Part shown: piece by piece, positions 2,230 through 19,375 of the stretch
Numbering within the stretch: position 1 is the first letter of the stretch
Layout of the letters: every line of letters starts with the position of its first letter
Sequence record: PZ445428.1
Direction: 5' to 3' (one strand)
DNA from: a phage
DNA length: 64,000 nucleotides
The notes under the pieces: model-generated
Databases searched by the model: none
What the model saw: the letters and a program-made list of their open reading frames with translations, nothing else
Told to the model about the DNA's origin: nothing
Translations under genes and position numbers: made by a program

Positions 2230-4789
2230 CGAGAATCCTTTTCACGTTATCCAGATCTTTACATACAGCGATAAACTTATCATCCTTGTACTTGCTGTGG
2301 TCTGGATGCTCTTTATCCATAGCTGCTAACTTCTTGTATTCGAAGTCTGCGTCTAATAATACACCCTTAACATAACGAGTATATTCATCATCATCGATAC
2401 ACGCAATAGACGGGTGCTGTTTCTTCATCTTACCGCAGGAGTAGTCACGAGAACCCCCAGCTTCGGAGTCAGAATCAATACCGATTGGGCAATCAGGAAT
2501 ACTGATACCACGGTCTTTCTGAATGTTACGAATCAGAATCTGGTTATACTGCTCAATCAGATCTTCACGTACAATGGCAACCACGGAGTCGTGAACCAAC
2601 ATGACGATCTTCATCTCCTTTCCTAGACCCAGGGACAGGATTTCTTCATCAGCATCAATAGCACCTAATAGGAGACTGTCAGAAGATGCAGACTGAATGA
2701 TTGCGTTAAATCCAGAACGGATTTCTTCACCCTGAACACCACGATCTTCGGAGTGGATGTTGTGAAGACGACGTTTACGACCAAAGTGACTATAGATGAA
2801 TCCAAAGTTCTTGATCTGATCGTGGCACTTATCAATCCAACGCTTAAGCTGAGGGAACTGACCGAAGTAAGTTTCGATGTAATCTTTCGCATCTGCAACA
2901 GTACATTCAGTGAACGGTTCACCAGTTTTAGCTGCTTGCTCAAGCAATGCTTCGTTAACAGAATGAGCTACCTTAGCTGGGCCAGAACCATACAGAATAC
3001 CGAAGGTAATTGCCTTAGCTGCCTGACGCAGGGCTGGGAACAGTTTCTTAACATCACGTGGTTCACAGGATAACTTAAATACCATGTGGGCGATGTTAGA
3101 GTGGAAGTCAGGATACTTATCCGGCTCATTTTTCATGTTGATGAATACTTGTTGCATGTTTCTGTCACCAGACAGTACAGCAGCATAGTAAACTTCAGCA
3201 GTTGTTAAGTCCCATGCGATTACACGATATCCAGGTGGTGCAACTACACAACCCTTGATAATAGATTCATCACGAGGTAACTGTTGCAAGTTCAGTTTAC
3301 CAGAAGAACTCAGACGACCAGAAGTAGTCATGTGTTCGTGGAAACCTGTACGGATGCAACCATCGGCATCGATACTCAGAAGAATCTTCTCAACATAAGT
3401 AGAGATCAGCTTAGTCAGCTTACGAATCTCTAGCAGAGTCTTAGCAATCGGATGTTGAGTTGCTAATTCATTCAGAGCTTCTGCGTTCGTAGAATCTGCA
3501 CCAGTATCCGTCAACTTACCAGTTGGAGCCAAACCAACATAATCGAACAGAAGAACACGGAGCTGCTTAACAGAGTTCGGGTTAAACGCTTCATTCTGAT
3601 CCTGTTCTAGTTGCTTAACTTCTGGATAAGTATACAGATGCTCACGAGCCTTATTCAGACGATGAGTCAATTGATACTGAGCTTCTTTCAGACGATCTAC
3701 GGAAATAGGTACACCACGATCTTCAACACGTTGCAGGAATACACAACCGGGCATCAGAACTTCGTAATACAGATCACGCAGTTTCTCGTTCTTCTCAATC
3801 TTCGGTAAGAAGAAATTGTGCAGACGCAGAGTCGCATCGGTATCCTTCGCAGCATATGGCCACATAATATCAAATGGAATCAGATCATAGCTGAAATCCT
3901 CTTTCTTGATCTTATGCGCTTTGCAATAATCGTCCTTGAACTTATCGAGTTCAAAGTCGTAGTCACCCATGTCAGTATACTTCATAGCCAAAGATTTCAG
4001 GCCGTGAGTACCACGACGTTCATCGAGAACATAGTGCTGTAACATGGTATCATGAAGTCTACGCTCTTTACTTGCTTTCTCGAAGGAAAGTCCTAGATGG
4101 TAGGAGTAAAAGTGCATATCGAACTTCAAGTTATGGAAAACAATGTCATGCTTCTCACTGTCCAGGATCTTCTGGAGATAATGGACTGTCACTTCCGTAA
4201 GCACATCGGCATCAATATAAACACCCTGATACTCTTGGTGAGAAATGGAAACACCAAGCAGATAACCATCACGGCAATACAGAGCCGAGGTTTCGGAGTC
4301 AAATGCGATCGGGCCGATAACCATGGTATACACCATCTTGATGTATTCTTCGGCTTCATCAGGATCTGTAATCGGGCGATAATCACCAGCTTTAGCAATT
4401 TTCTCCCGACCATTAATAATGTCATGAATGCTTTCAACAGTTGCTTCAAAGACTGGTTTCATTTCAGGTTTAAAGTGTAACTGGGCTGGACTAATACTTG
4501 CAATCCAGTTCGCATAGCCATTATGCTCTACACGTTTACCGGTATAATCACCAATACCTTTCTTGCCTGCAAAATACAGGAAAGGTTCAGCACCAACTAG
4601 TACAACAAAATCGTAATCATTCGGATCGAATGGATTCTCTGGAGTTCCAATGGTAATATGCTTTTTCAGCAAACGCCCAGATAACTTCTCGTTACACATA
4701 TGGAATACATCAACTTCCTCACCGTAAAGCTGGAAGTGTTTATCATAACGAGTATTATTTAGAGCTTTATCAACTACTGCAATTTTCAA
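2222..4789 (-). CDS. DNA polymerase, family A, with 3'-5' exonuclease domain
   Basis: 855 aa; exo motif FDSETSALY; Pol I-like motif B RQAAKAITFGILYGSG; motif C LVHDS. Confidence 0.95.
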   Translation of the reverse strand: MKIAVVDKALNNTRYDKHFQLYGEEVDVFHMCNEKLSGRLLKKHITIGTPENPFDPNDYDFVVLVGAEPFLYFAGKKGIGDYTGKRVEHNGYANWIASISPAQLHFKPEMKPVFEATVESIHDIINGREKIAKAGDYRPITDPDEAEEYIKMVYTMVIGPIAFDSETSALYCRDGYLLGVSISHQEYQGVYIDADVLTEVTVHYLQKILDSEKHDIVFHNLKFDMHFYSYHLGLSFEKASKERRLHDTMLQHYVLDERRGTHGLKSLAMKYTDMGDYDFELDKFKDDYCKAHKIKKEDFSYDLIPFDIMWPYAAKDTDATLRLHNFFLPKIEKNEKLRDLYYEVLMPGCVFLQRVEDRGVPISVDRLKEAQYQLTHRLNKAREHLYTYPEVKQLEQDQNEAFNPNSVKQLRVLLFDYVGLAPTGKLTDTGADSTNAEALNELATQHPIAKTLLEIRKLTKLISTYVEKILLSIDADGCIRTGFHEHMTTSGRLSSSGKLNLQQLPRDESIIKGCVVAPPGYRVIAWDLTTAEVYYAAVLSGDRNMQQVFINMKNEPDKYPDFHSNIAHMVFKLSCEPRDVKKLFPALRQAAKAITFGILYGSGPAKVAHSVNEALLEQAAKTGEPFTECTVADAKDYIETYFGQFPQLKRWIDKCHDQIKNFGFIYSHFGRKRRLHNIHSEDRGVQGEEIRSGFNAIIQSASSDSLLLGAIDADEEILSLGLGKEMKIVMLVHDSVVAIVREDLIEQYNQILIRNIQKDRGISIPDCPIGIDSDSEAGGSRDYSCGKMKKQHPSIACIDDDEYTRYVKGVLLDADFEYKKLAAMDKEHPDHSKYKDDKFIAVCKDLDNVKRILGA

Positions 4790-12738: not shown

Positions 12739-15577
12739 TTCTAGCTCCCAGTTCTGCCAAAGCCTCTTCATGCATCTGACGTTCTTCATCAGTCATGAAC
12801 TTAACTGGAATCGGCATACACTCGATCTTACAGTAAGTTCTGTACCAGTCCACAATCTTTTCTGTATCCAAATCCTTTCCGATACCCATCATTCCCAAGT
12901 ACATACGAGCATACTTTGGGTTTGCACTCTGACCTGTTTTAAGGAAGAAATCTTTCTTCTTACCTTTCAGAGCTTCGATAAATGGTTTGATTGTGACATT
13001 TGAACACTTCTTAATATCTTCCCAGAACATCTCGTGCATCTTATGGAAGAATGCAGCCCGATCGTTTGGTTTATCCTTGATATACTGTTCAACATGTTCA
13101 ACTGTTACATCTTTAATAGAATCAAGATGATAGTAACGAACTAGCAGAAGTTTTGCTTCATAAGCATCAGCATGACGTGGTGCACAATAATCAGGAGTTG
13201 AGTGCAGGATAGCTTTAATTCGCTCTTCTGTGTACTCTTTGTTTGCACCTTCGATAGTCCCCCAGCTTTCACTGAAGATATCAATAGTCGCACCCTGATC
13301 AAGCAGATAATAGCGTAGAGTACTAGTATAATTCCTAGACTCCAGCTCACGACGACGTGCATAAAGTTGCTGTGCTAACTCAATCCAACCTTCGTCAATA
13401 TTATACTGCTCGGAACCCGCAGAAAATCCACTTGTAGACTTATCAATAAAGTAATAGATATTCTGAGCACCACGGTCGCGCCTGATTGCTTGAAAACGCA
13501 TGTTTGGCGCTTGGTTACTGGTTCGAGTAATAACGAATACGTTATCGAAATAGTTAAAGTCAACCCCACTCGTTACAGAGGGACTACATAATAAACAATC
13601 AATCTGCTGATCAATTAGCTCATTAGTTGTGTAATCCAGAATACGACGAATATCCACATCTGATGTGGAATTTGAGTGAATTTCTTTAACTAACGCACCA
13701 GTATTACGACGTAACGCCATACCTTTTTCGTTCAGTTCATCCGGACCACAGTCAGATACTAGGATAGATTTCTCACCCATCTCTAGAGATGTTTGTAAGG
13801 CAACCCAAATGCTGGATTCATCAGGGAACTCATAAGCATGAGCTTTTGCCAGCATTTTACGGTGATGATTATAGAACGCTACCGGTTTATCAAAGTCGAT
13901 CAGAGAGCCATAGGCTTCAATCGTTTCAGCACTAATATCACCATCAGACAGAATAACTGTTTTAGCTGTCATGAGAATATCACGAAGAACCTGAATACAT
14001 TCACGACGGTTCTTAACAACTGGAGCAAACAACAGGTCATTCATTACCGCGTCACATTCATCGATAAAGATTGTATCAATCTGACCAACAAAACTCTTGA
14101 ATTTATGGATTGAGTGAATCGTAGTTGACATACGATCAATCGCACCACGCTTGAAGTTCAGCATATCTACAGACTTATCATACTGACCAGCACTAAATTT
14201 CTTTGCGTTTGAAGATACCAGAGCACGAGTGTTTGTTACCGCGATGAAATTCCCAGGAAGAACGCCAGCATCCAGCCACTTCGTTACCGCCGTAGTTTTA
14301 CCTGTACCAAGACTTGCCTTAACAAATGTTAGGTGATCTTTTGGAGGTACAATGTTAATCTTCAGATATGGGACTTCCGCTGGAGAATCCGTATTTAACT
14401 GTTTTAGAGGAACACCTTTCAAGTTTTGTGGAATATCTCTACGACTATTGTTAACAAACGCTTTTAACGCCTGTTTACGACCGTTATTGAAGTAATCCTG
14501 AATATTACGACTATTATCTTTAGTTGCAATGTATTCAGACAAGGCAGGTTTAATCTCACGTTCTAACCACGCAAAATCAACACCATCCTCTAACGCTCGG
14601 TGATATAGTTTTGGAATAATACGCAGGTACACTCCATCCTCAGCTTCTTCTAATTCGCTGATGGTTTCCTCTACTTTTTCAGAAGCAGCCTTCTTACCTT
14701 TGATTTGATCGAGTAAAGAGTAGAACTCTTCTTTGAACTCACCCCTAGTTGTTTCATAGTCAACTAGGTTGTTTGGCAGATTTACTTTCGAACCCTTAAC
14801 ATACACAAGGCGTGGCTTATTCTCCGCTTTAAACGGATCAACTATACCATCGCTAAATAAAGGGTCGGCAAAATAGTGAAGCTGTACAGAAGAATAATAA
14901 GCTAAGTCAGCAATATCAAAACCATACTTTTGCTTACTACTATCGTTGATAGACGTAAATAAGAACTTTAACTGTCCCTGCGTCACCTTAACATTAGATT
15001 CCAGCATTAAGTGCATTCGGATACCTGATTTTAATCCAGCCGAAGACGATGCATGAGCAATAAACCCTGCATCAAGAGGAAACATATCCTCACTAATACT
15101 ATGTAACATCTTAATGATATGACGTGCCATGCCAACAAGATTAAACTTGTCGTAACCACCAGTATCCTGAATACCATCCACGTCCATTGCAATAATGTGA
15201 CTAGGATTAGAAACGTTAAAGTTTCCACGAGTACGACGGACATTATCCTTTGGAGCCAAACATTTACCACGAATAGCCACAATATGAGGATCTTGGGTTA
15301 GCCTACGCATAATAGGCAGCATTTCAGCAAGGCTTTGCGGGTCAAGCTCTTCAAGTACATCAAATTTGAAGGGCATGGAAGCTGGTTTACCTTCCGGATG
15401 CTCTTTCGAGAATCGCTTAGCAAAGGTGTAATCTTCCACTTTAATTTCTTTCCAGATGCCTGTTGCTTTATCTCTGGAAAATCCTGCATGACCTTGTAGG
15501 ATTGAGAACACAACAATACTCCTATGCTGGTTATTCGAATACTTTTCTTTAGGACTATTCAAAAAAGAATAGAACAA
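12722..15577 (-). CDS. large P-loop NTPase, helicase or replication-initiator-like
   Basis: 951 aa; Walker A LGTGKTTAV and Walker B FIDECDAV in the central region; N-terminal MDVDG segment may be primase-like. Confidence 0.65.
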   Translation of the reverse strand: MFYSFLNSPKEKYSNNQHRSIVVFSILQGHAGFSRDKATGIWKEIKVEDYTFAKRFSKEHPEGKPASMPFKFDVLEELDPQSLAEMLPIMRRLTQDPHIVAIRGKCLAPKDNVRRTRGNFNVSNPSHIIAMDVDGIQDTGGYDKFNLVGMARHIIKMLHSISEDMFPLDAGFIAHASSSAGLKSGIRMHLMLESNVKVTQGQLKFLFTSINDSSKQKYGFDIADLAYYSSVQLHYFADPLFSDGIVDPFKAENKPRLVYVKGSKVNLPNNLVDYETTRGEFKEEFYSLLDQIKGKKAASEKVEETISELEEAEDGVYLRIIPKLYHRALEDGVDFAWLEREIKPALSEYIATKDNSRNIQDYFNNGRKQALKAFVNNSRRDIPQNLKGVPLKQLNTDSPAEVPYLKINIVPPKDHLTFVKASLGTGKTTAVTKWLDAGVLPGNFIAVTNTRALVSSNAKKFSAGQYDKSVDMLNFKRGAIDRMSTTIHSIHKFKSFVGQIDTIFIDECDAVMNDLLFAPVVKNRRECIQVLRDILMTAKTVILSDGDISAETIEAYGSLIDFDKPVAFYNHHRKMLAKAHAYEFPDESSIWVALQTSLEMGEKSILVSDCGPDELNEKGMALRRNTGALVKEIHSNSTSDVDIRRILDYTTNELIDQQIDCLLCSPSVTSGVDFNYFDNVFVITRTSNQAPNMRFQAIRRDRGAQNIYYFIDKSTSGFSAGSEQYNIDEGWIELAQQLYARRRELESRNYTSTLRYYLLDQGATIDIFSESWGTIEGANKEYTEERIKAILHSTPDYCAPRHADAYEAKLLLVRYYHLDSIKDVTVEHVEQYIKDKPNDRAAFFHKMHEMFWEDIKKCSNVTIKPFIEALKGKKKDFFLKTGQSANPKYARMYLGMMGIGKDLDTEKIVDWYRTYCKIECMPIPVKFMTDEERQMHEEALAELGARNDSEE

Positions 15578-16010
15578 CTATTACTAACGTCAACACAAAT
15601 ATTAATCATCATCAAGCAGTATGGATAAGTTACCATACCTCAGTGCTGTGCTCTCTATACTCATATCCAGAATAGAAATTAGGTCTATCGGCCGCTAAGC
15701 CATTTCTATTTGTCCTCACTATCCTATTGGTAGGTGACTACTGGACGTGTTACCATTCGCAGCTCTTTTCGTTCGCACCCCCATAAAAGCCTCTCCCTAT
15801 CTAACGAAGCTAATATGCACGGTTTGGATTTACCTTTCCGAATTCAGGGTACACAGATCACTTAATTGACAACCAACTAATATCGTATAAACATTAGTAA
15901 TAGTTAAAACAACCTTTAATGGGGCAGCCGAACTGTTCCGTATTGCGGATTGTAAACAAGAAAAATTAGTAAAATCAATTTTTACTAATGTCTCTCAATT
16001 CAATATAAAT

Positions 16011-16040
16011 ATTATATCAACTTTTGGAGCATCCTGCAAG
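16011..16040 (-). promoter_or_regulatory. sigma70 promoter facing the ORF-free region 15578-16010
   Basis: Reverse complement reads TTGCAGgatgctccaaaagttgaTATAAT. Confidence 0.5.
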
Positions 16041-16130
16041 TAAAATTTTCCCGACGGTGCTATCAGTGGCCTTGAGTACGGAGAAAACCGAGCCAAAGTG
16101 ACTCGGTAATCAGGATTGTGCTAAGGAAAA

Positions 16131-16538
16131 TCAATCATCATTTAGACCTGGAACATAGATTCCAATACGGTTTAATTGATGTTTGGCTTCTTCGAGAATA
16201 TCTGGAGTGTACTCCCAAATATCATCTTCCACAAATAACAAATAAGGGGACTCACCTGTTTCGGGGTCACGTGTAATGGCGTAACCGCGTGGGTGGAACA
16301 GGGAGAAGTTTAGGGCAACAATAAGACCCATACGAGATAGCTCATTCCAGTGCATCTCAAAATCTACAGGAACATCATTTTGATCTCTACTGGTAACAAA
16401 GATTCCTAGACAAGGATCTGTCGGGTCAGTAAAGGGGAAAGTTACACTAACCTTTTCAACCCCCAACCAACGTGCAAGGAGCCCTTCAGCCCGCTCCACT
16501 AAACTAGGATCAATAAGACGCCAAGATACTTGTTCCAT
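16131..16538 (-). CDS. hypothetical protein, paralog of 16549-16977
   Basis: C-terminal half aligns with the neighbour: WNELSRMGLIVALNFSLF against WKELDYMGLVFALNYKLF, both ending IPGL/VPGL. Confidence 0.6.
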   Translation of the reverse strand: MEQVSWRLIDPSLVERAEGLLARWLGVEKVSVTFPFTDPTDPCLGIFVTSRDQNDVPVDFEMHWNELSRMGLIVALNFSLFHPRGYAITRDPETGESPYLLFVEDDIWEYTPDILEEAKHQLNRIGIYVPGLNDD

Positions 16539-16548
16539 TCTGCCTCCT

Positions 16549-16977
16549 TTAAGCAGTTAAACCAGGGATCTGATAGCCGAAATGACGCAGCTTCTGGATA
16601 CCCTCATTTATTTCTTCGGGCGAATAATGCCAGCCCTCACGTTCATTTACCTGGAAAGCCGGAGCCTCCCCATTACGATAGTTTACTATCAAACGATGTT
16701 TAATAGGCATGAACAGTTTGTAGTTCAATGCAAAAACCAATCCCATGTAGTCCAGTTCTTTCCAGTCTACAATCTCTTCTACCCCATCTTCCAACATTAC
16801 ACTGATACCAATGCAGCTAGCTTCATCAGAGTCTGAAGTAAACGCGAAAGCAATCTCATTATTCTCACACCAAATCTTGAGAGTATTAATGGCTTCCTCA
16901 AACAGATTATCCGGCAGAGAACGCCAGAAGTTGATAAGAAGTGGATTGATATTGGTTTCAAATAGGTTATTAAACAT
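16549..16977 (-). CDS. hypothetical protein, paralog of 16131-16538
   Basis: Tandem duplicate, 142 aa. Confidence 0.6.
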   Translation of the reverse strand: MFNNLFETNINPLLINFWRSLPDNLFEEAINTLKIWCENNEIAFAFTSDSDEASCIGISVMLEDGVEEIVDWKELDYMGLVFALNYKLFMPIKHRLIVNYRNGEAPAFQVNEREGWHYSPEEINEGIQKLRHFGYQIPGLTA

Positions 16978-16979
16978 AG

Positions 16980-17519
16980 CTATACCTTTAAGTTTTGAAG
17001 GGCTTTACACATTGCAAGATCAGGACTAAACTCCAGCATATAGCTGATAGCATTCAGATCCTGCATATTTATTCCAGTTCTACCATTGACAATAACTGTT
17101 GGATACTGGTACATCATAGCTCCAGCATCATCTAGGACACACCAGTGCTTGAGTTTGTACTTTTCCACAAACCGAAGAACAGAATTGCCTCTAGATAATC
17201 CACCACCAGTAAAATCAGTAGTACCAAGAAAACGATCAACCAGACCTAACGCGGTCATGATCTCAACATTCTCCACCTCGTTACGTACTGTAAACCATGA
17301 TGAAACCCCAACAATCATTATACCGGATGGTTTTAAGAAGTTCTGGAAAGCCTGTAGTAAAGGTTTGAAAACCCAGTCTCCACCAAAGAAGATCTTCTCT
17401 TCATCTGGAGCATGGTGGTGAGAGATGCTCGAATTGAGCACCCCATCAATATCCAGAAAAATAATTGGAGTATTACTTAGATCCACCGGATTTGTCCCAT
17501 TGCAGAGTTTTAGCTTCAT
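16980..17519 (-). CDS. HAD-superfamily phosphatase-like protein
   Basis: HAD motif I FLDIDGVL; motif II VGVSSW; later VLDDAG. Confidence 0.6.
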   Translation of the reverse strand: MKLKLCNGTNPVDLSNTPIIFLDIDGVLNSSISHHHAPDEEKIFFGGDWVFKPLLQAFQNFLKPSGIMIVGVSSWFTVRNEVENVEIMTALGLVDRFLGTTDFTGGGLSRGNSVLRFVEKYKLKHWCVLDDAGAMMYQYPTVIVNGRTGINMQDLNAISYMLEFSPDLAMCKALQNLKV

Positions 17520-17658
17520 CGGAGAAAGGAATATGGTAGTCTACCTTACCCTTACCAAACATAGCCGCCAAAAATACAGTATAGATAGTAATCATACCAA
17601 TCAGGTTTACAGTCCACACCAATACTTTCCAGATACCCTTAAAAATCTTCTTCACCAT
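17473..17658 (-). CDS. hypothetical small membrane protein
   Basis: 61 aa with one hydrophobic helix; overlaps the HAD gene start. Confidence 0.35.
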   Translation of the reverse strand: MVKKIFKGIWKVLVWTVNLIGMITIYTVFLAAMFGKGKVDYHIPFSDEAKTLQWDKSGGSK

Positions 17659-17821
17659 ATTCTTCCTCCTTAATCAGGAATTCTTTCCATTCTGCTGTAT
17701 CCTCATAGATAACGCAGAAATCATCACTCTTGCACGAGAAATCATCAGTAGCATATTCAAAACGGTAGCACCAACTACCATCTGGCCATACTAAAAGATC
17801 ACACATGCTTTTGCGGTGCAT
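17639..17821 (-). CDS. hypothetical small acidic protein
   Basis: 60-aa ORF overlapping neighbours by about 20 nt. Confidence 0.35.
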   Translation of the reverse strand: MHRKSMCDLLVWPDGSWCYRFEYATDDFSCKSDDFCVIYEDTAEWKEFLIKEEEYGEEDF

Positions 17822-18575
17822 AAATAGTTCCTTCCATAAAAGCCCCTACTTGGCCAATAAAGTGTTTGTTACCAAAAACTTCGGCAGCCCCAGCACGCCA
17901 TACAGTAACACCACGTTTCTCATACAAGGACTGTTCTAAGTAGTTGATAGTTGGGTTAACAACCATCATCTTAGTACCCCGTGCCACCGCAGGAAATAGT
18001 TCCCAGTTGAAGTTGATAACTTGGTTACTGCACCCAACCACGATAACCATATCATTAGCCGTAAGACTATCGAAAGTAGCGTTCATCAAAGCGTATTCAG
18101 GGGCTACTTCACCGAAGAATACAACGTTAGGCTTAGCCCAATAAAACTCATCAGGATCTATGGCAGTATAACCCACATCTAGGATATACTCTTTTCGATC
18201 TGGCAATTCCTTAATACGAACTTCTGGTAAATAACCATGAACGTGTAGAACTTCACTTTTTGGCACACCAGCCCTTTCCAGTAGATCATCCACGTTAGTA
18301 GTGATGTTCAGTACAGTCTCTGGATATCGTTGGAACCACTCCCCAATGCGGAGATGCGCAATGTTAGGTTCAACAGTCTGCAATTCCTGACGACGCTTGT
18401 TGTAGAACTCGTGGGTTTTCCAGTAGAACTGTCCACGGAAAGCATGAATATCACATACTTCTTCCAGATCGTATTCATCCCACATTGCCTTGCCACTAGC
18501 AGTATCTGTACGGAATGCACGGATACCACTATCAACACTTAAACCTGCACCACTAACAATAATTAGTCTACGCAT
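17799..18575 (-). CDS. SIR2-family (sirtuin-like) NAD-dependent protein
   Basis: N-terminal IVSGAGLSVDSGIRAFR matches the sirtuin GAGxSxxxGIPxFR NAD-binding motif. Confidence 0.65.
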   Translation of the reverse strand: MRRLIIVSGAGLSVDSGIRAFRTDTASGKAMWDEYDLEEVCDIHAFRGQFYWKTHEFYNKRRQELQTVEPNIAHLRIGEWFQRYPETVLNITTNVDDLLERAGVPKSEVLHVHGYLPEVRIKELPDRKEYILDVGYTAIDPDEFYWAKPNVVFFGEVAPEYALMNATFDSLTANDMVIVVGCSNQVINFNWELFPAVARGTKMMVVNPTINYLEQSLYEKRGVTVWRAGAAEVFGNKHFIGQVGAFMEGTIYAPQKHV

Positions 18576-19294: not shown

Positions 19295-19323
19295 TTATAA
19301 ATCTATTATACACAAATTTTTAG
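19295..19323 (-). promoter_or_regulatory. N25-like early promoter
   Basis: Reverse complement reads TTGCTTTCAGctaaaaatttgtgTATAATAGATTTATAAATTTGAGAGGAG. Confidence 0.65.
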
Positions 19324-19357
19324 CTGAAAGCAAATAAAATAAAAGCCAGGTCGACTA
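19322..19357 (-). terminator. intrinsic terminator after nrdD
   Basis: Minus-strand RNA forms AGCCAGGT...ACCTGGCT hairpin followed by TTTTATTTT. Confidence 0.6.
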
Positions 19358-19375
19358 GCAACCTGGCTGATTCAC

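What the first reader, a model, noticed from the sequence alone, without database searches (positions are those of the whole stretch)
16131..16977. Tandem paralogous genes of unknown function
Two adjacent minus-strand genes (135 and 142 aa) share clear similarity across their C-terminal halves (W[NK]EL..MGL..ALN..LF...IPGL), indicating a local duplication that has been retained.
Basis: seen in the sequence. Interest (0 to 1): 0.4.

Follow-up and report, generated by a model that had tools for sequence, protein, structure and literature searches.

The report
Ancient tandem DUF7415 paralogues, T5-like phage
Two neighbouring early genes of a T5-like phage are real, ancient duplicates from a widespread phage-only protein family of unknown function; one copy kept the family's conserved signature and the other lost it, which is a useful lead but not a surprise.

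Summary
The window is Escherichia phage TrudiGerster (Bas27, T5-like). The genes are bas27_0047 (135 aa) and bas27_0048 (142 aa), orthologues of T5.107 and T5.106. They align over 129 residues, not only the C-terminal halves (34% identity, E=4e-22). Both belong to Pfam DUF7415 and PHROG 2502, so the paralogy is already implicit in public catalogues.

The duplication is old. There is no DNA-level repeat, the pair keeps the same order in Markadamsvirinae, Sugarlandvirus and Eos-like phages, and a tree gives separate upstream and downstream clades. Both copies are under purifying selection (dN/dS 0.06-0.35).

They are the last two genes of an early operon that also encodes a Sir2-like protein and a HAD_SAK_2 phosphatase.

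AlphaFold models are confident (pLDDT 91-92) and share one topology, with no significant relative among solved structures.

The downstream copy keeps a near-invariant family signature (N77, H82, R90, S97); the upstream copy has lost most of it. In a published T5 knock-down screen only T5.107 was called fitness-relevant, and marginally.

Function is unknown. My best guess, at modest confidence, is a non-enzymatic binding module tied to early DNA and nucleotide metabolism.

The parts
16131..16538 (-). bas27_0047 (p1), 135 aa, the downstream paralogue and orthologue of T5.107. It keeps the full DUF7415 signature.
   Evidence: ORF; GenBank CDS; Pfam 93.8 bits; PHROG 2502; AF2 pLDDT 92.1, pTM 0.86; T5 orthologue.
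16549..16977 (-). bas27_0048 (p2), 142 aa, the upstream paralogue and orthologue of T5.106. Its signature is degenerate (H to M, R to V, S to A).
   Evidence: ORF; CDS; Pfam 105.5 bits; PHROG 2502; AF2 pLDDT 90.7, pTM 0.84; signature table.
16209..16370 (-). Canonical DUF7415 module of p1 (residues 57-110: strand, helix, hairpin, WEY). It carries N77, H82-P83, R90-D91, G95 and S97-P98.
   Evidence: Pfam on the isolated C half, 57.5 bits; family-wide conservation over 143 representatives; secondary structure.
16624..16779 (-). Homologous but degenerate module of p2 (residues 67-118).
   Evidence: Pfam on the isolated C half, 51.7 bits; signature table; secondary structure.
16371..16538 (-). N-terminal half of p1 (strand, helix, two strands). 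Pfam also calls it DUF7415, but my own profiles do not confirm that.
   Evidence: Pfam 40.6 bits on the isolated half; hhalign and hmmsearch of N halves against the C-type module are not significant.
16543..16548 (-). AGGAGG ribosome-binding site for p1, inside the 10-nt gap after the p2 stop codon.
   Evidence: Read directly from the sequence.
16081..16107 (-). Terminator-like hairpin (9-bp stem followed by UUUUCU) that ends the operon.
   Evidence: RNA fold -17.6 kcal/mol, z=-3.5; a terminator is annotated at the same place in T5, Sugarland and AKM_ECS.
16980..17519 (-). Context: the HAD_SAK_2 phosphatase-like gene (bas27_0049, T5.105 orthologue) immediately upstream. Its stop codon lies 2 nt before the p2 start.
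   Evidence: Pfam PF18143, E=9e-19; CDS.
17799..18575 (-). Context: the Sir2-like gene (bas27_0052, T5.102 orthologue). It is the conserved upstream neighbour of the pair across the Demerecviridae loci examined.
   Evidence: Pfam SIR2, E=2e-23; synteny.
19305..19333 (-). Promoter-like site TTGCTT-17 nt-TATAAT just after the nrdD terminator. It is the probable start of the early operon that ends with the pair.
   Evidence: Sequence; T5 records annotate an early promoter at the equivalent site. It fell below the threshold of the consensus scan.

Best explanation
Shown: bas27_0048 and bas27_0047 are ancient tandem paralogues of the phage-specific DUF7415 family. They are the last two genes of an early operon (Sir2-like, small ORFs, HAD_SAK_2, p2, p1, terminator) that lies between nrdD and the origin-binding/primase gene. 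Each is predicted to be one compact alpha/beta protein with the order strand-helix-strand-strand-strand-helix-strand-strand-helix. The C half of each is the ~55-residue module that other phages carry as a free 60-110-aa protein or fused to other domains. After the duplication, the downstream copy kept the near-invariant family signature (N77, H82-P83, R90, S97). The upstream copy lost it but stayed under purifying selection. Inferred, at modest confidence: these are non-enzymatic binding proteins. The signature face of the downstream copy binds a conserved partner, either a protein or a nucleotide-type ligand connected with DNA replication or nucleotide/RNA-end metabolism early in infection. 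The upstream copy serves as a degenerate partner or scaffold in a hetero-oligomer, or has drifted to a different target.
For: Paralogy. Family membership. Same order of upstream and downstream copy after Sir2 in Markadamsvirinae, Sugarlandvirus, Eos-like and other T5-like contigs. Two clades in the tree. Purifying selection on both copies (dN/dS 0.06-0.35). Same predicted topology with high confidence. Signature strongly conserved in 143 representatives at 50% identity or less (N 99%, H 94%, S 97%, R 76%). All 16 downstream-type proteins keep N77, H82, A87, R90 and S97. Upstream-type proteins that sit beside (or cluster with those that sit beside) a downstream copy lost R90 in 11 of 11 cases and H82 in 9 of 11. 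T5-like genomes with a single copy keep the full signature. In the CRISPRi-ART screen of T5, T5.107 was called Fit (p=0.02) and T5.106 Not Fit (PMC11879866 supplements). The module is portable, occurring free-standing or at either terminus, fused to Cox, thymidylate kinase, a PF04447 dNTP pyrophosphohydrolase or DUF3850/ASCH. Neighbours recur from nucleic-acid metabolism: between nrdD and nrdG, start overlapping the rnlA stop, next to gpA and Dam/Dcm methylases. There is no match to any enzyme family or fold.
Against: The T5.107 fitness call is marginal, and the screen also missed T5.108, the origin-binding/replication gene that would be expected to matter. The contexts are heterogeneous: phiCTX-like prophages place the free module in the late operon between L and X. 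Fusions could merely reflect adjacency in accessory regions. Invariant Asn, His, Arg and Ser could equally form a catalytic or ligand site. Without model coordinates I could not check whether they cluster on one face.
Confidence: 0.4

Rival explanations
1. Anti-defence or host-takeover inhibitor. The module is a small protein binder that blocks a host protein such as an immunity component, adaptor or protease, in the way IraD or anti-CRISPR proteins work. The pair would cover two variants of the target.
Confidence: 0.2
2. Small-molecule binder. The module would bind a nucleotide or nucleotide-derived signal, either as a regulatory or sensor domain attached to enzymes or as a free sponge.
For: Invariant polar residues (N, H, R, S, D) sit in a 55-aa module. 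It is fused to thymidylate kinase, a PF04447 pyrophosphohydrolase and DUF3850/ASCH. Its neighbours include nrdD/nrdG, NUDIX, Sir2 and HAD. The two-module proteins keep only one intact site, like a pseudo-dimer with one active pocket.
Against: No sequence hit and no fold hit in the lists returned points to any nucleotide-binding protein in the PDB, and I saw no Tad- or Acb-type sponge among them. No binding data exist. Cox fusions and the late-operon location do not fit obviously.
Confidence: 0.15
3. A very small enzyme whose active site is built by oligomerisation from the His, Arg, Ser and Asn signature. The upstream copy would be a pseudo-enzyme partner.
For: The conservation pattern is that of a catalytic site. 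One copy per genome always keeps it. The degenerate copy is retained under selection.
Against: There is no similarity to any enzyme family or fold. At about 55 residues the module is very small. From the topology, H82-P83 and the R90-S97 hairpin lie at opposite ends of the strand they flank; this is my inference.
Confidence: 0.07
4. Redundant duplicates kept for dosage, with both copies doing the same job.
For: They lie in the same operon and have the same predicted fold.
Against: They share only 34% identity. The loss of the signature is asymmetric. The orthologous clades have been separate since before the Demerecviridae lineages split. The knock-down calls in T5 differ.
Confidence: 0.05

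Closest known systems
Pfam PF24187 (DUF7415) / PHROG 2502; T5.106 and T5.107 of phage T5
   Same: Both window proteins score far above the family cut-offs. They are 72% (p2) and 65% (p1) identical to T5.106 and T5.107, with the same gene order and operon.
   Different: Nothing differs in kind; these are orthologues. The family has no assigned function and I found no paper naming it. The only functional data are the CRISPRi-ART fitness calls.
Free-standing single-module DUF7415 proteins (phiCTX orf7, Aeh1p318, the Jiaodavirus gene between nrdD and nrdG, the P2-type gene after A)
   Same: They share the same ~55-aa signature module as the C half of p1.
   Different: They lack the N-terminal half and the C-terminal helix. 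They are single genes and sit in other genomic contexts, including a late operon.
IraD anti-adaptor / GpW-gp25-like small alpha/beta proteins
AcrIC4 (anti-CRISPR, 8dfo_M)
   Different: Identity is 16%, with no family link and no CRISPR context. The similarity is that of a simple motif.

Membership tests
Pfam PF24187 DUF7415 | HMM score at or above the gathering cut-off of 27 bits | tested here: met
   p1 scores 93.8 bits and p2 105.5 bits. The isolated halves score 40.6, 57.5, 57.7 and 51.7 bits.
Pfam PF24187 DUF7415 | Family signature DWNxLSxxGLxxxINxxxLHPxGxAxxRDxxTGxSP, derived here from 143 representatives | tested here: met
   The p1 C half keeps every near-invariant residue. The p2 C half keeps W, G, L and N but has M for H, V for R and A for S. 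So the feature is met for p1 and only partly for p2.
Pfam PF24187 DUF7415 | The N-terminal half is a second, homologous copy of the module (internal repeat) | tested here: inconclusive
   Pfam matches both halves, and both halves have a strand-helix-strand-strand order. My own profile-profile and profile-sequence tests of N halves against the C-type module are not significant (best E=0.02 over 15 columns, probability 2-3%).
PHROG 2502 | Full-length HMM match | tested here: met
   E=9.1e-54 over residues 1-134 and E=3.9e-56 over residues 11-142.
GpW/gp25/IraD family | Sequence-profile similarity to IraD | tested here: not met
   hhalign of A2 and of A1 against E. coli IraD gives probability 0.4% and 0.1%.
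GpW/gp25/IraD family | Significant structural match | tested here: not met
RRM / RNP-type RNA-binding domain | RNP1 and RNP2 aromatic motifs and a significant profile or fold match | tested here: not met
MazG-like / dATP-dGTP pyrophosphohydrolase (a label on some homologues) | Match to PF04447 or a MazG domain | tested here: not met
   p1 and p2 have no such hit. PF04447 is a separate domain in the fusion proteins P0167 and P0169.
'Tail tube protein' / 'exonuclease' (labels on orthologues in some GenBank records) | Homology to a tail-tube or exonuclease family, or a position in the structural module | tested here: not met
   Pfam, NCBIfam and PHROG give no support. The genes lie in the early replication and nucleotide-metabolism region.
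Known immune-signal sponges (Tad1, Tad2, Acb2) | Sequence or fold homology to solved members | tested here: not met

The most novel reading that the evidence does not exclude
DUF7415 is a previously unrecognised, widely shared phage effector module with its own fold. Its invariant Asn/His/Arg/Ser face would bind one conserved cellular target or nucleotide-type ligand. In T5-like phages it would work as an obligate heterodimer of one intact and one degenerate subunit, needed for normal early DNA or nucleotide metabolism or for evading a common host response.
Probability: 0.15. Interest if true: 0.6.

Novelty: already known. Interest (0 to 1): 0.33.

Why it matters
These are two of the many conserved 'hypothetical' early genes of T5-like phages. 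The family occurs in T4-like, T5-like and P2-like phages and in prophages of enterobacteria, Pseudomonas, Aeromonas and Vibrio. It has a sharply conserved signature, no structural relative and no assigned function, and one member (T5.107) shows a measurable fitness effect. The intact copy paired with a degenerate copy gives a natural experimental handle: it points directly to the residues and the gene worth mutating first. Working out the function would annotate hundreds of phage genomes at once. As it stands, though, this is a catalogued domain of unknown function rather than a new kind of system.

Tried and rejected
- Internal duplication: Pfam hits both halves of each protein. My own hhalign and hmmsearch of N halves against the C-type module found only a 15-column helix match (E about 0.02). 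I left this as unconfirmed.
- The search for related loci with the diverse module alignment failed because no stretch was conserved enough.
- PADLOC and NCBIfam gave nothing meaningful.
- Rfam and DNA repeats across the locus gave nothing relevant.
- Literature searches for DUF7415, T5.106/T5.107/T5p104/T5p105, the PHROG and VOG identifiers, and T5 with Sir2 and early genes gave no hits. P2 orf91 papers were not informative. A transposon-mutagenesis preprint contained none of the T5-related search terms.
- The 'tail tube protein', 'exonuclease' and 'MazG-like' labels on homologues are rejected as unsupported.
- The two small ORFs upstream (17473-17658 and 17639-17821) are not paralogues in this window by BLASTP, although a published T5 table files T5.103 and T5.104 under one PHROG.

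Full report
**Identity of the window and the genes**

A megablast of 15900-17600 matches Escherichia phage TrudiGerster at 100% identity. This is phage Bas27, accession MZ501108, genus Epseptimavirus, subfamily Markadamsvirinae, family Demerecviridae. The two ORFs are its CDSs bas27_0047 (16131-16538, minus strand, 135 aa; 'p1' below) and bas27_0048 (16549-16977, minus strand, 142 aa; 'p2' below). Both are annotated as hypothetical proteins. Their orthologues in phage T5 are:
- T5.107 for p1 (T5p105, also labelled 'Aeh1ORF298c-like')
- T5.106 for p2 (T5p104, also labelled ORF098)

**Checking the observation**

BLASTP aligns the two proteins over 129 residues with 34% identity and E=4e-22. The similarity is colinear and covers both halves:
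- N half against N half: E=1e-6
- C half against C half: E=6e-17

Both proteins exceed the Pfam DUF7415 gathering score (93.8 and 105.5 bits against a cut-off of 27) and match PHROG 2502 end to end. NCBIfam, PADLOC and the PDB sequence searches gave nothing meaningful. A six-frame scan of the whole window with three profiles found only these two copies. The genes share no DNA-level repeat, so the duplication is old.

**Operon context**

The pair closes a minus-strand gene string, in this order:
- A promoter-like TTGCTT-17 nt-TATAAT at 19333-19305, right after the nrdD terminator. T5 records annotate an early promoter at the same place.
- Three small ORFs (bas27_0055, 0054 and 0053).
- A Sir2-like gene (17799-18575; Pfam E=2e-23).
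- Two small ORFs.
- A HAD_SAK_2 phosphatase-like gene (16980-17519; E=9e-19).
- p2, then p1.

The HAD stop codon lies 2 nt before the p2 start. An AGGAGG sits in the 10-nt gap between p2 and p1. A 9-bp hairpin followed by UUUUCU (16107-16081) comes after p1; the 61-nt region folds at -17.6 kcal/mol with z=-3.5. T5, Sugarland and AKM_ECS annotate terminators at the same position. A non-coding stretch of about 550 nt and the origin-binding/primase gene lie downstream.

**Age and fate of the duplication**

- tblastn finds p1-like sequences in 895 phage records and p2-like sequences in 526. About 520 T5-like records carry both copies as two adjacent places.
- The order Sir2, [HAD], upstream copy, downstream copy, terminator, origin-binding gene is kept in T5, Sugarland, bacteriophage Eos and further T5-like contigs. 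HAD is present only in some lineages.
- A neighbour-joining tree of 32 two-module proteins separates a downstream-type clade (p1, T5.107, Sugarland, Eos and DU_PP_V copies) from an upstream-type clade (p2, T5.106, Sugarland and Eos upstream copies). The duplication therefore predates the split of these lineages.
- Both copies are under purifying selection among TrudiGerster, rutana and AKM_ECS. dN/dS is 0.15-0.26 for p1 and 0.06-0.35 for p2.
- Some T5-like genomes have a single copy: DU_PP_V, L027 and L028, with no remnant of a second copy.

**The family and its signature**

An exhaustive profile search returned the maximum of 150 representatives at E below 1e-3. About 20 are two-module proteins from T5-like phages. 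Most of the rest are 60-110-aa proteins that consist of little more than the C-terminal module. The module also sits at either end of longer proteins.

Across 143 representatives the module reads DWNxLSxxGLxxxINxEILHPLGLAxxRDPETGxSPGxLVxxDGxWEY. Conservation of key residues is N 99%, H 94%, P 92%, S 97%, three Gly at 94-99%, and R 76%.

p1 keeps all of these: N77, H82, P83, G85, A87, R90, D91, G95, S97, P98. p2 has M for H82, V-N for R90-D91 and A for S97.

The pattern generalises:
- All 16 downstream-type proteins keep N77, H82, A87, R90 and S97.
- Of 11 upstream-type proteins, six were seen directly beside a downstream copy in their loci; the other five I grouped with them by their position in the tree. 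All 11 have lost R90 and 9 have lost H82.
- Single-copy genomes keep the full signature.

So each genome examined keeps at least one intact module, and the extra copy degenerates at exactly those positions while staying constrained elsewhere.

**Structure**

AlphaFold2 models built with family alignments are confident:
- p1: pLDDT 92.1, pTM 0.86
- p2: pLDDT 90.7, pTM 0.84

Both have the same order of elements: strand, helix, two strands, strand, broken helix, two strands, helix.

The search results against structure libraries were:
- Foldseek against PDB: best E=0.29.
- BFVD: only DUF7415 proteins.
- hhalign of the family profiles against E. coli IraD: negative.
- Module profile against PDB sequences: only an insignificant RRM loop match at E=1.9.

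The fold therefore has no demonstrable relative among solved structures. The afdb50 library could not be searched.

**Is each protein an internal repeat?**

Pfam matches each isolated half above its cut-off (40.6, 57.5, 57.7 and 51.7 bits). Both halves also share a strand-helix-strand-strand order. However, my own profiles of the N halves and of the canonical module do not recognise each other. I report this as unresolved. The Pfam model may simply have been built from a mixture of both kinds of segment.

**Clues to function**

Fusion partners of the module:
- Thymidylate kinase (P0087)
- A PF04447 dATP/dGTP pyrophosphohydrolase (P0167 and P0169)
- DUF3850/ASCH (P0177)
- The Cox DNA-binding domain in an E. 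coli P2-like prophage (P0075)
- A weak ClpX-type zinc finger

Neighbours of the free module:
- Between nrdD and nrdG in Jiaodavirus
- Start overlapping the rnlA stop in Aeh1 and AsFcp_2. There, a homologue of the T5 HAD gene lies four genes upstream, between td and nrdA.1.
- Near a NUDIX gene in Matisse
- After or before gpA and Dam/Dcm methylases in P2- and 186-like prophages
- Between head gene L and tail gene X in phiCTX-like Pseudomonas prophages

The common theme is early, accessory genes close to replication, nucleotide or RNA-end metabolism. The theme has exceptions.

The only experimental data I found come from the CRISPRi-ART screen of T5 (Adler et al., Nat Microbiol 2025, PMC11879866, supplements):
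- T5.107 is one of 17 'Fit' genes and is described as of entirely unknown function (fitness -2.90, p=0.0215).
- T5.106 (p=0.17), the Sir2-like T5.102 and the HAD T5.105 are 'Not Fit'.
- The call for T5.107 is marginal, and even the origin-binding gene T5.108 was not detected.

It still fits the sequence asymmetry: the copy with the intact signature is the one with a phenotype.

**Interpretation**

The following is shown:
- Real, ancient paralogues
- One family and one predicted fold
- Asymmetric retention of a sharply conserved signature
- Early operon linkage to a Sir2-like gene, and in some lineages to HAD

The following is inferred, with confidence about 0.4. The module is a non-enzymatic binding unit whose signature face recognises a conserved partner linked to early DNA or nucleotide metabolism. 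The upstream copy is a degenerate partner or scaffold, or a diverged binder.

The rivals are an anti-defence or host-takeover inhibitor (0.2), a nucleotide-type ligand binder or sponge (0.15), a tiny oligomeric enzyme with a pseudo-enzyme partner (0.07) and simple redundancy (0.05). None can be excluded with these tools. The decisive experiments and computations are listed separately.

**Novelty and verdict**

The genes are identical to deposited sequences. The family is catalogued in Pfam, PHROG and pVOG, and the paralogy is implicit because both genes fall in the same families. This analysis adds four things: the dating of the duplication, the intact-versus-degenerate asymmetry, the lack of fold relatives, and the link to a published fitness phenotype. 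The finding is correct and modestly interesting as a lead into a widespread uncharacterised phage module. It is not a new kind of system.

Noticed in passing
window 16980-17519 (-); L007 1982-2488: The gene upstream of the pair is a HAD_SAK_2 phosphatase-like protein (Pfam E=9e-19). Yet RefSeq T5.105 and PHROG 18062 label it 'Sir2 (NAD-dependent deacetylase)', which looks like a propagated mis-annotation. The longest ORF is 179 aa, whereas GenBank annotates a shorter start (507 nt).
   Followed up: partly
window 16131-16977 compared with L023 (AKM_ECS) and L022 (rutana): The locus is mosaic. Between TrudiGerster and AKM_ECS, p1 is only 67% identical at protein level while the adjacent p2 is 94% and HAD 95%. 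An allele exchange with a breakpoint between the two paralogues would explain this.
   Followed up: partly
window 15576-15995: The ~550-nt non-coding stretch between the p1 terminator and the primase/origin-binding gene holds three inverted-repeat pairs that share a TTACTAATGT-type core. They may be operator or regulatory sites. Nothing in Rfam matches.
   Followed up: no
L013 (Aeh1) 15958-17360; L005 (AsFcp_2) 2326-3728: In two Aeromonas T4-like phages, the start of the free DUF7415 gene overlaps the stop of RNA ligase 1 (rnlA). The homologue of the T5 HAD gene lies four genes upstream, between td and nrdA.1. This hints at an RNA-repair association.
   Followed up: partly
L012 6001-6360 (E. 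coli prophage): A P2-like prophage encodes a Cox DNA-binding domain fused to a C-terminal DUF7415 module. It sits next to the integrase and repressor, and upstream of an S8 peptidase plus AAA ATPase pair that looks like defence cargo.
   Followed up: no
window 16371-16538 and 16780-16977 (N halves): The Pfam DUF7415 model scores the N-terminal halves above threshold, although independent profiles of N halves and canonical modules do not detect each other. The Pfam seed may mix two segment types.
   Followed up: yes
window 19344-19368 and 19305-19333 (-): The nrdD terminator (10-bp stem plus T-run) is followed within about 10 nt by a promoter-like TTGCTT-17-TATAAT. This compact terminator-promoter junction is conserved with T5.
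   Followed up: partly
window 17473-17658 and 17639-17821 (-): The two small overlapping ORFs between HAD and Sir2 show no BLASTP similarity here, although a published T5 table assigns T5.103 and T5.104 to the same PHROG (5116). Only the 60-aa ORF was checked, and it matches PHROG 5116.
   Followed up: partly
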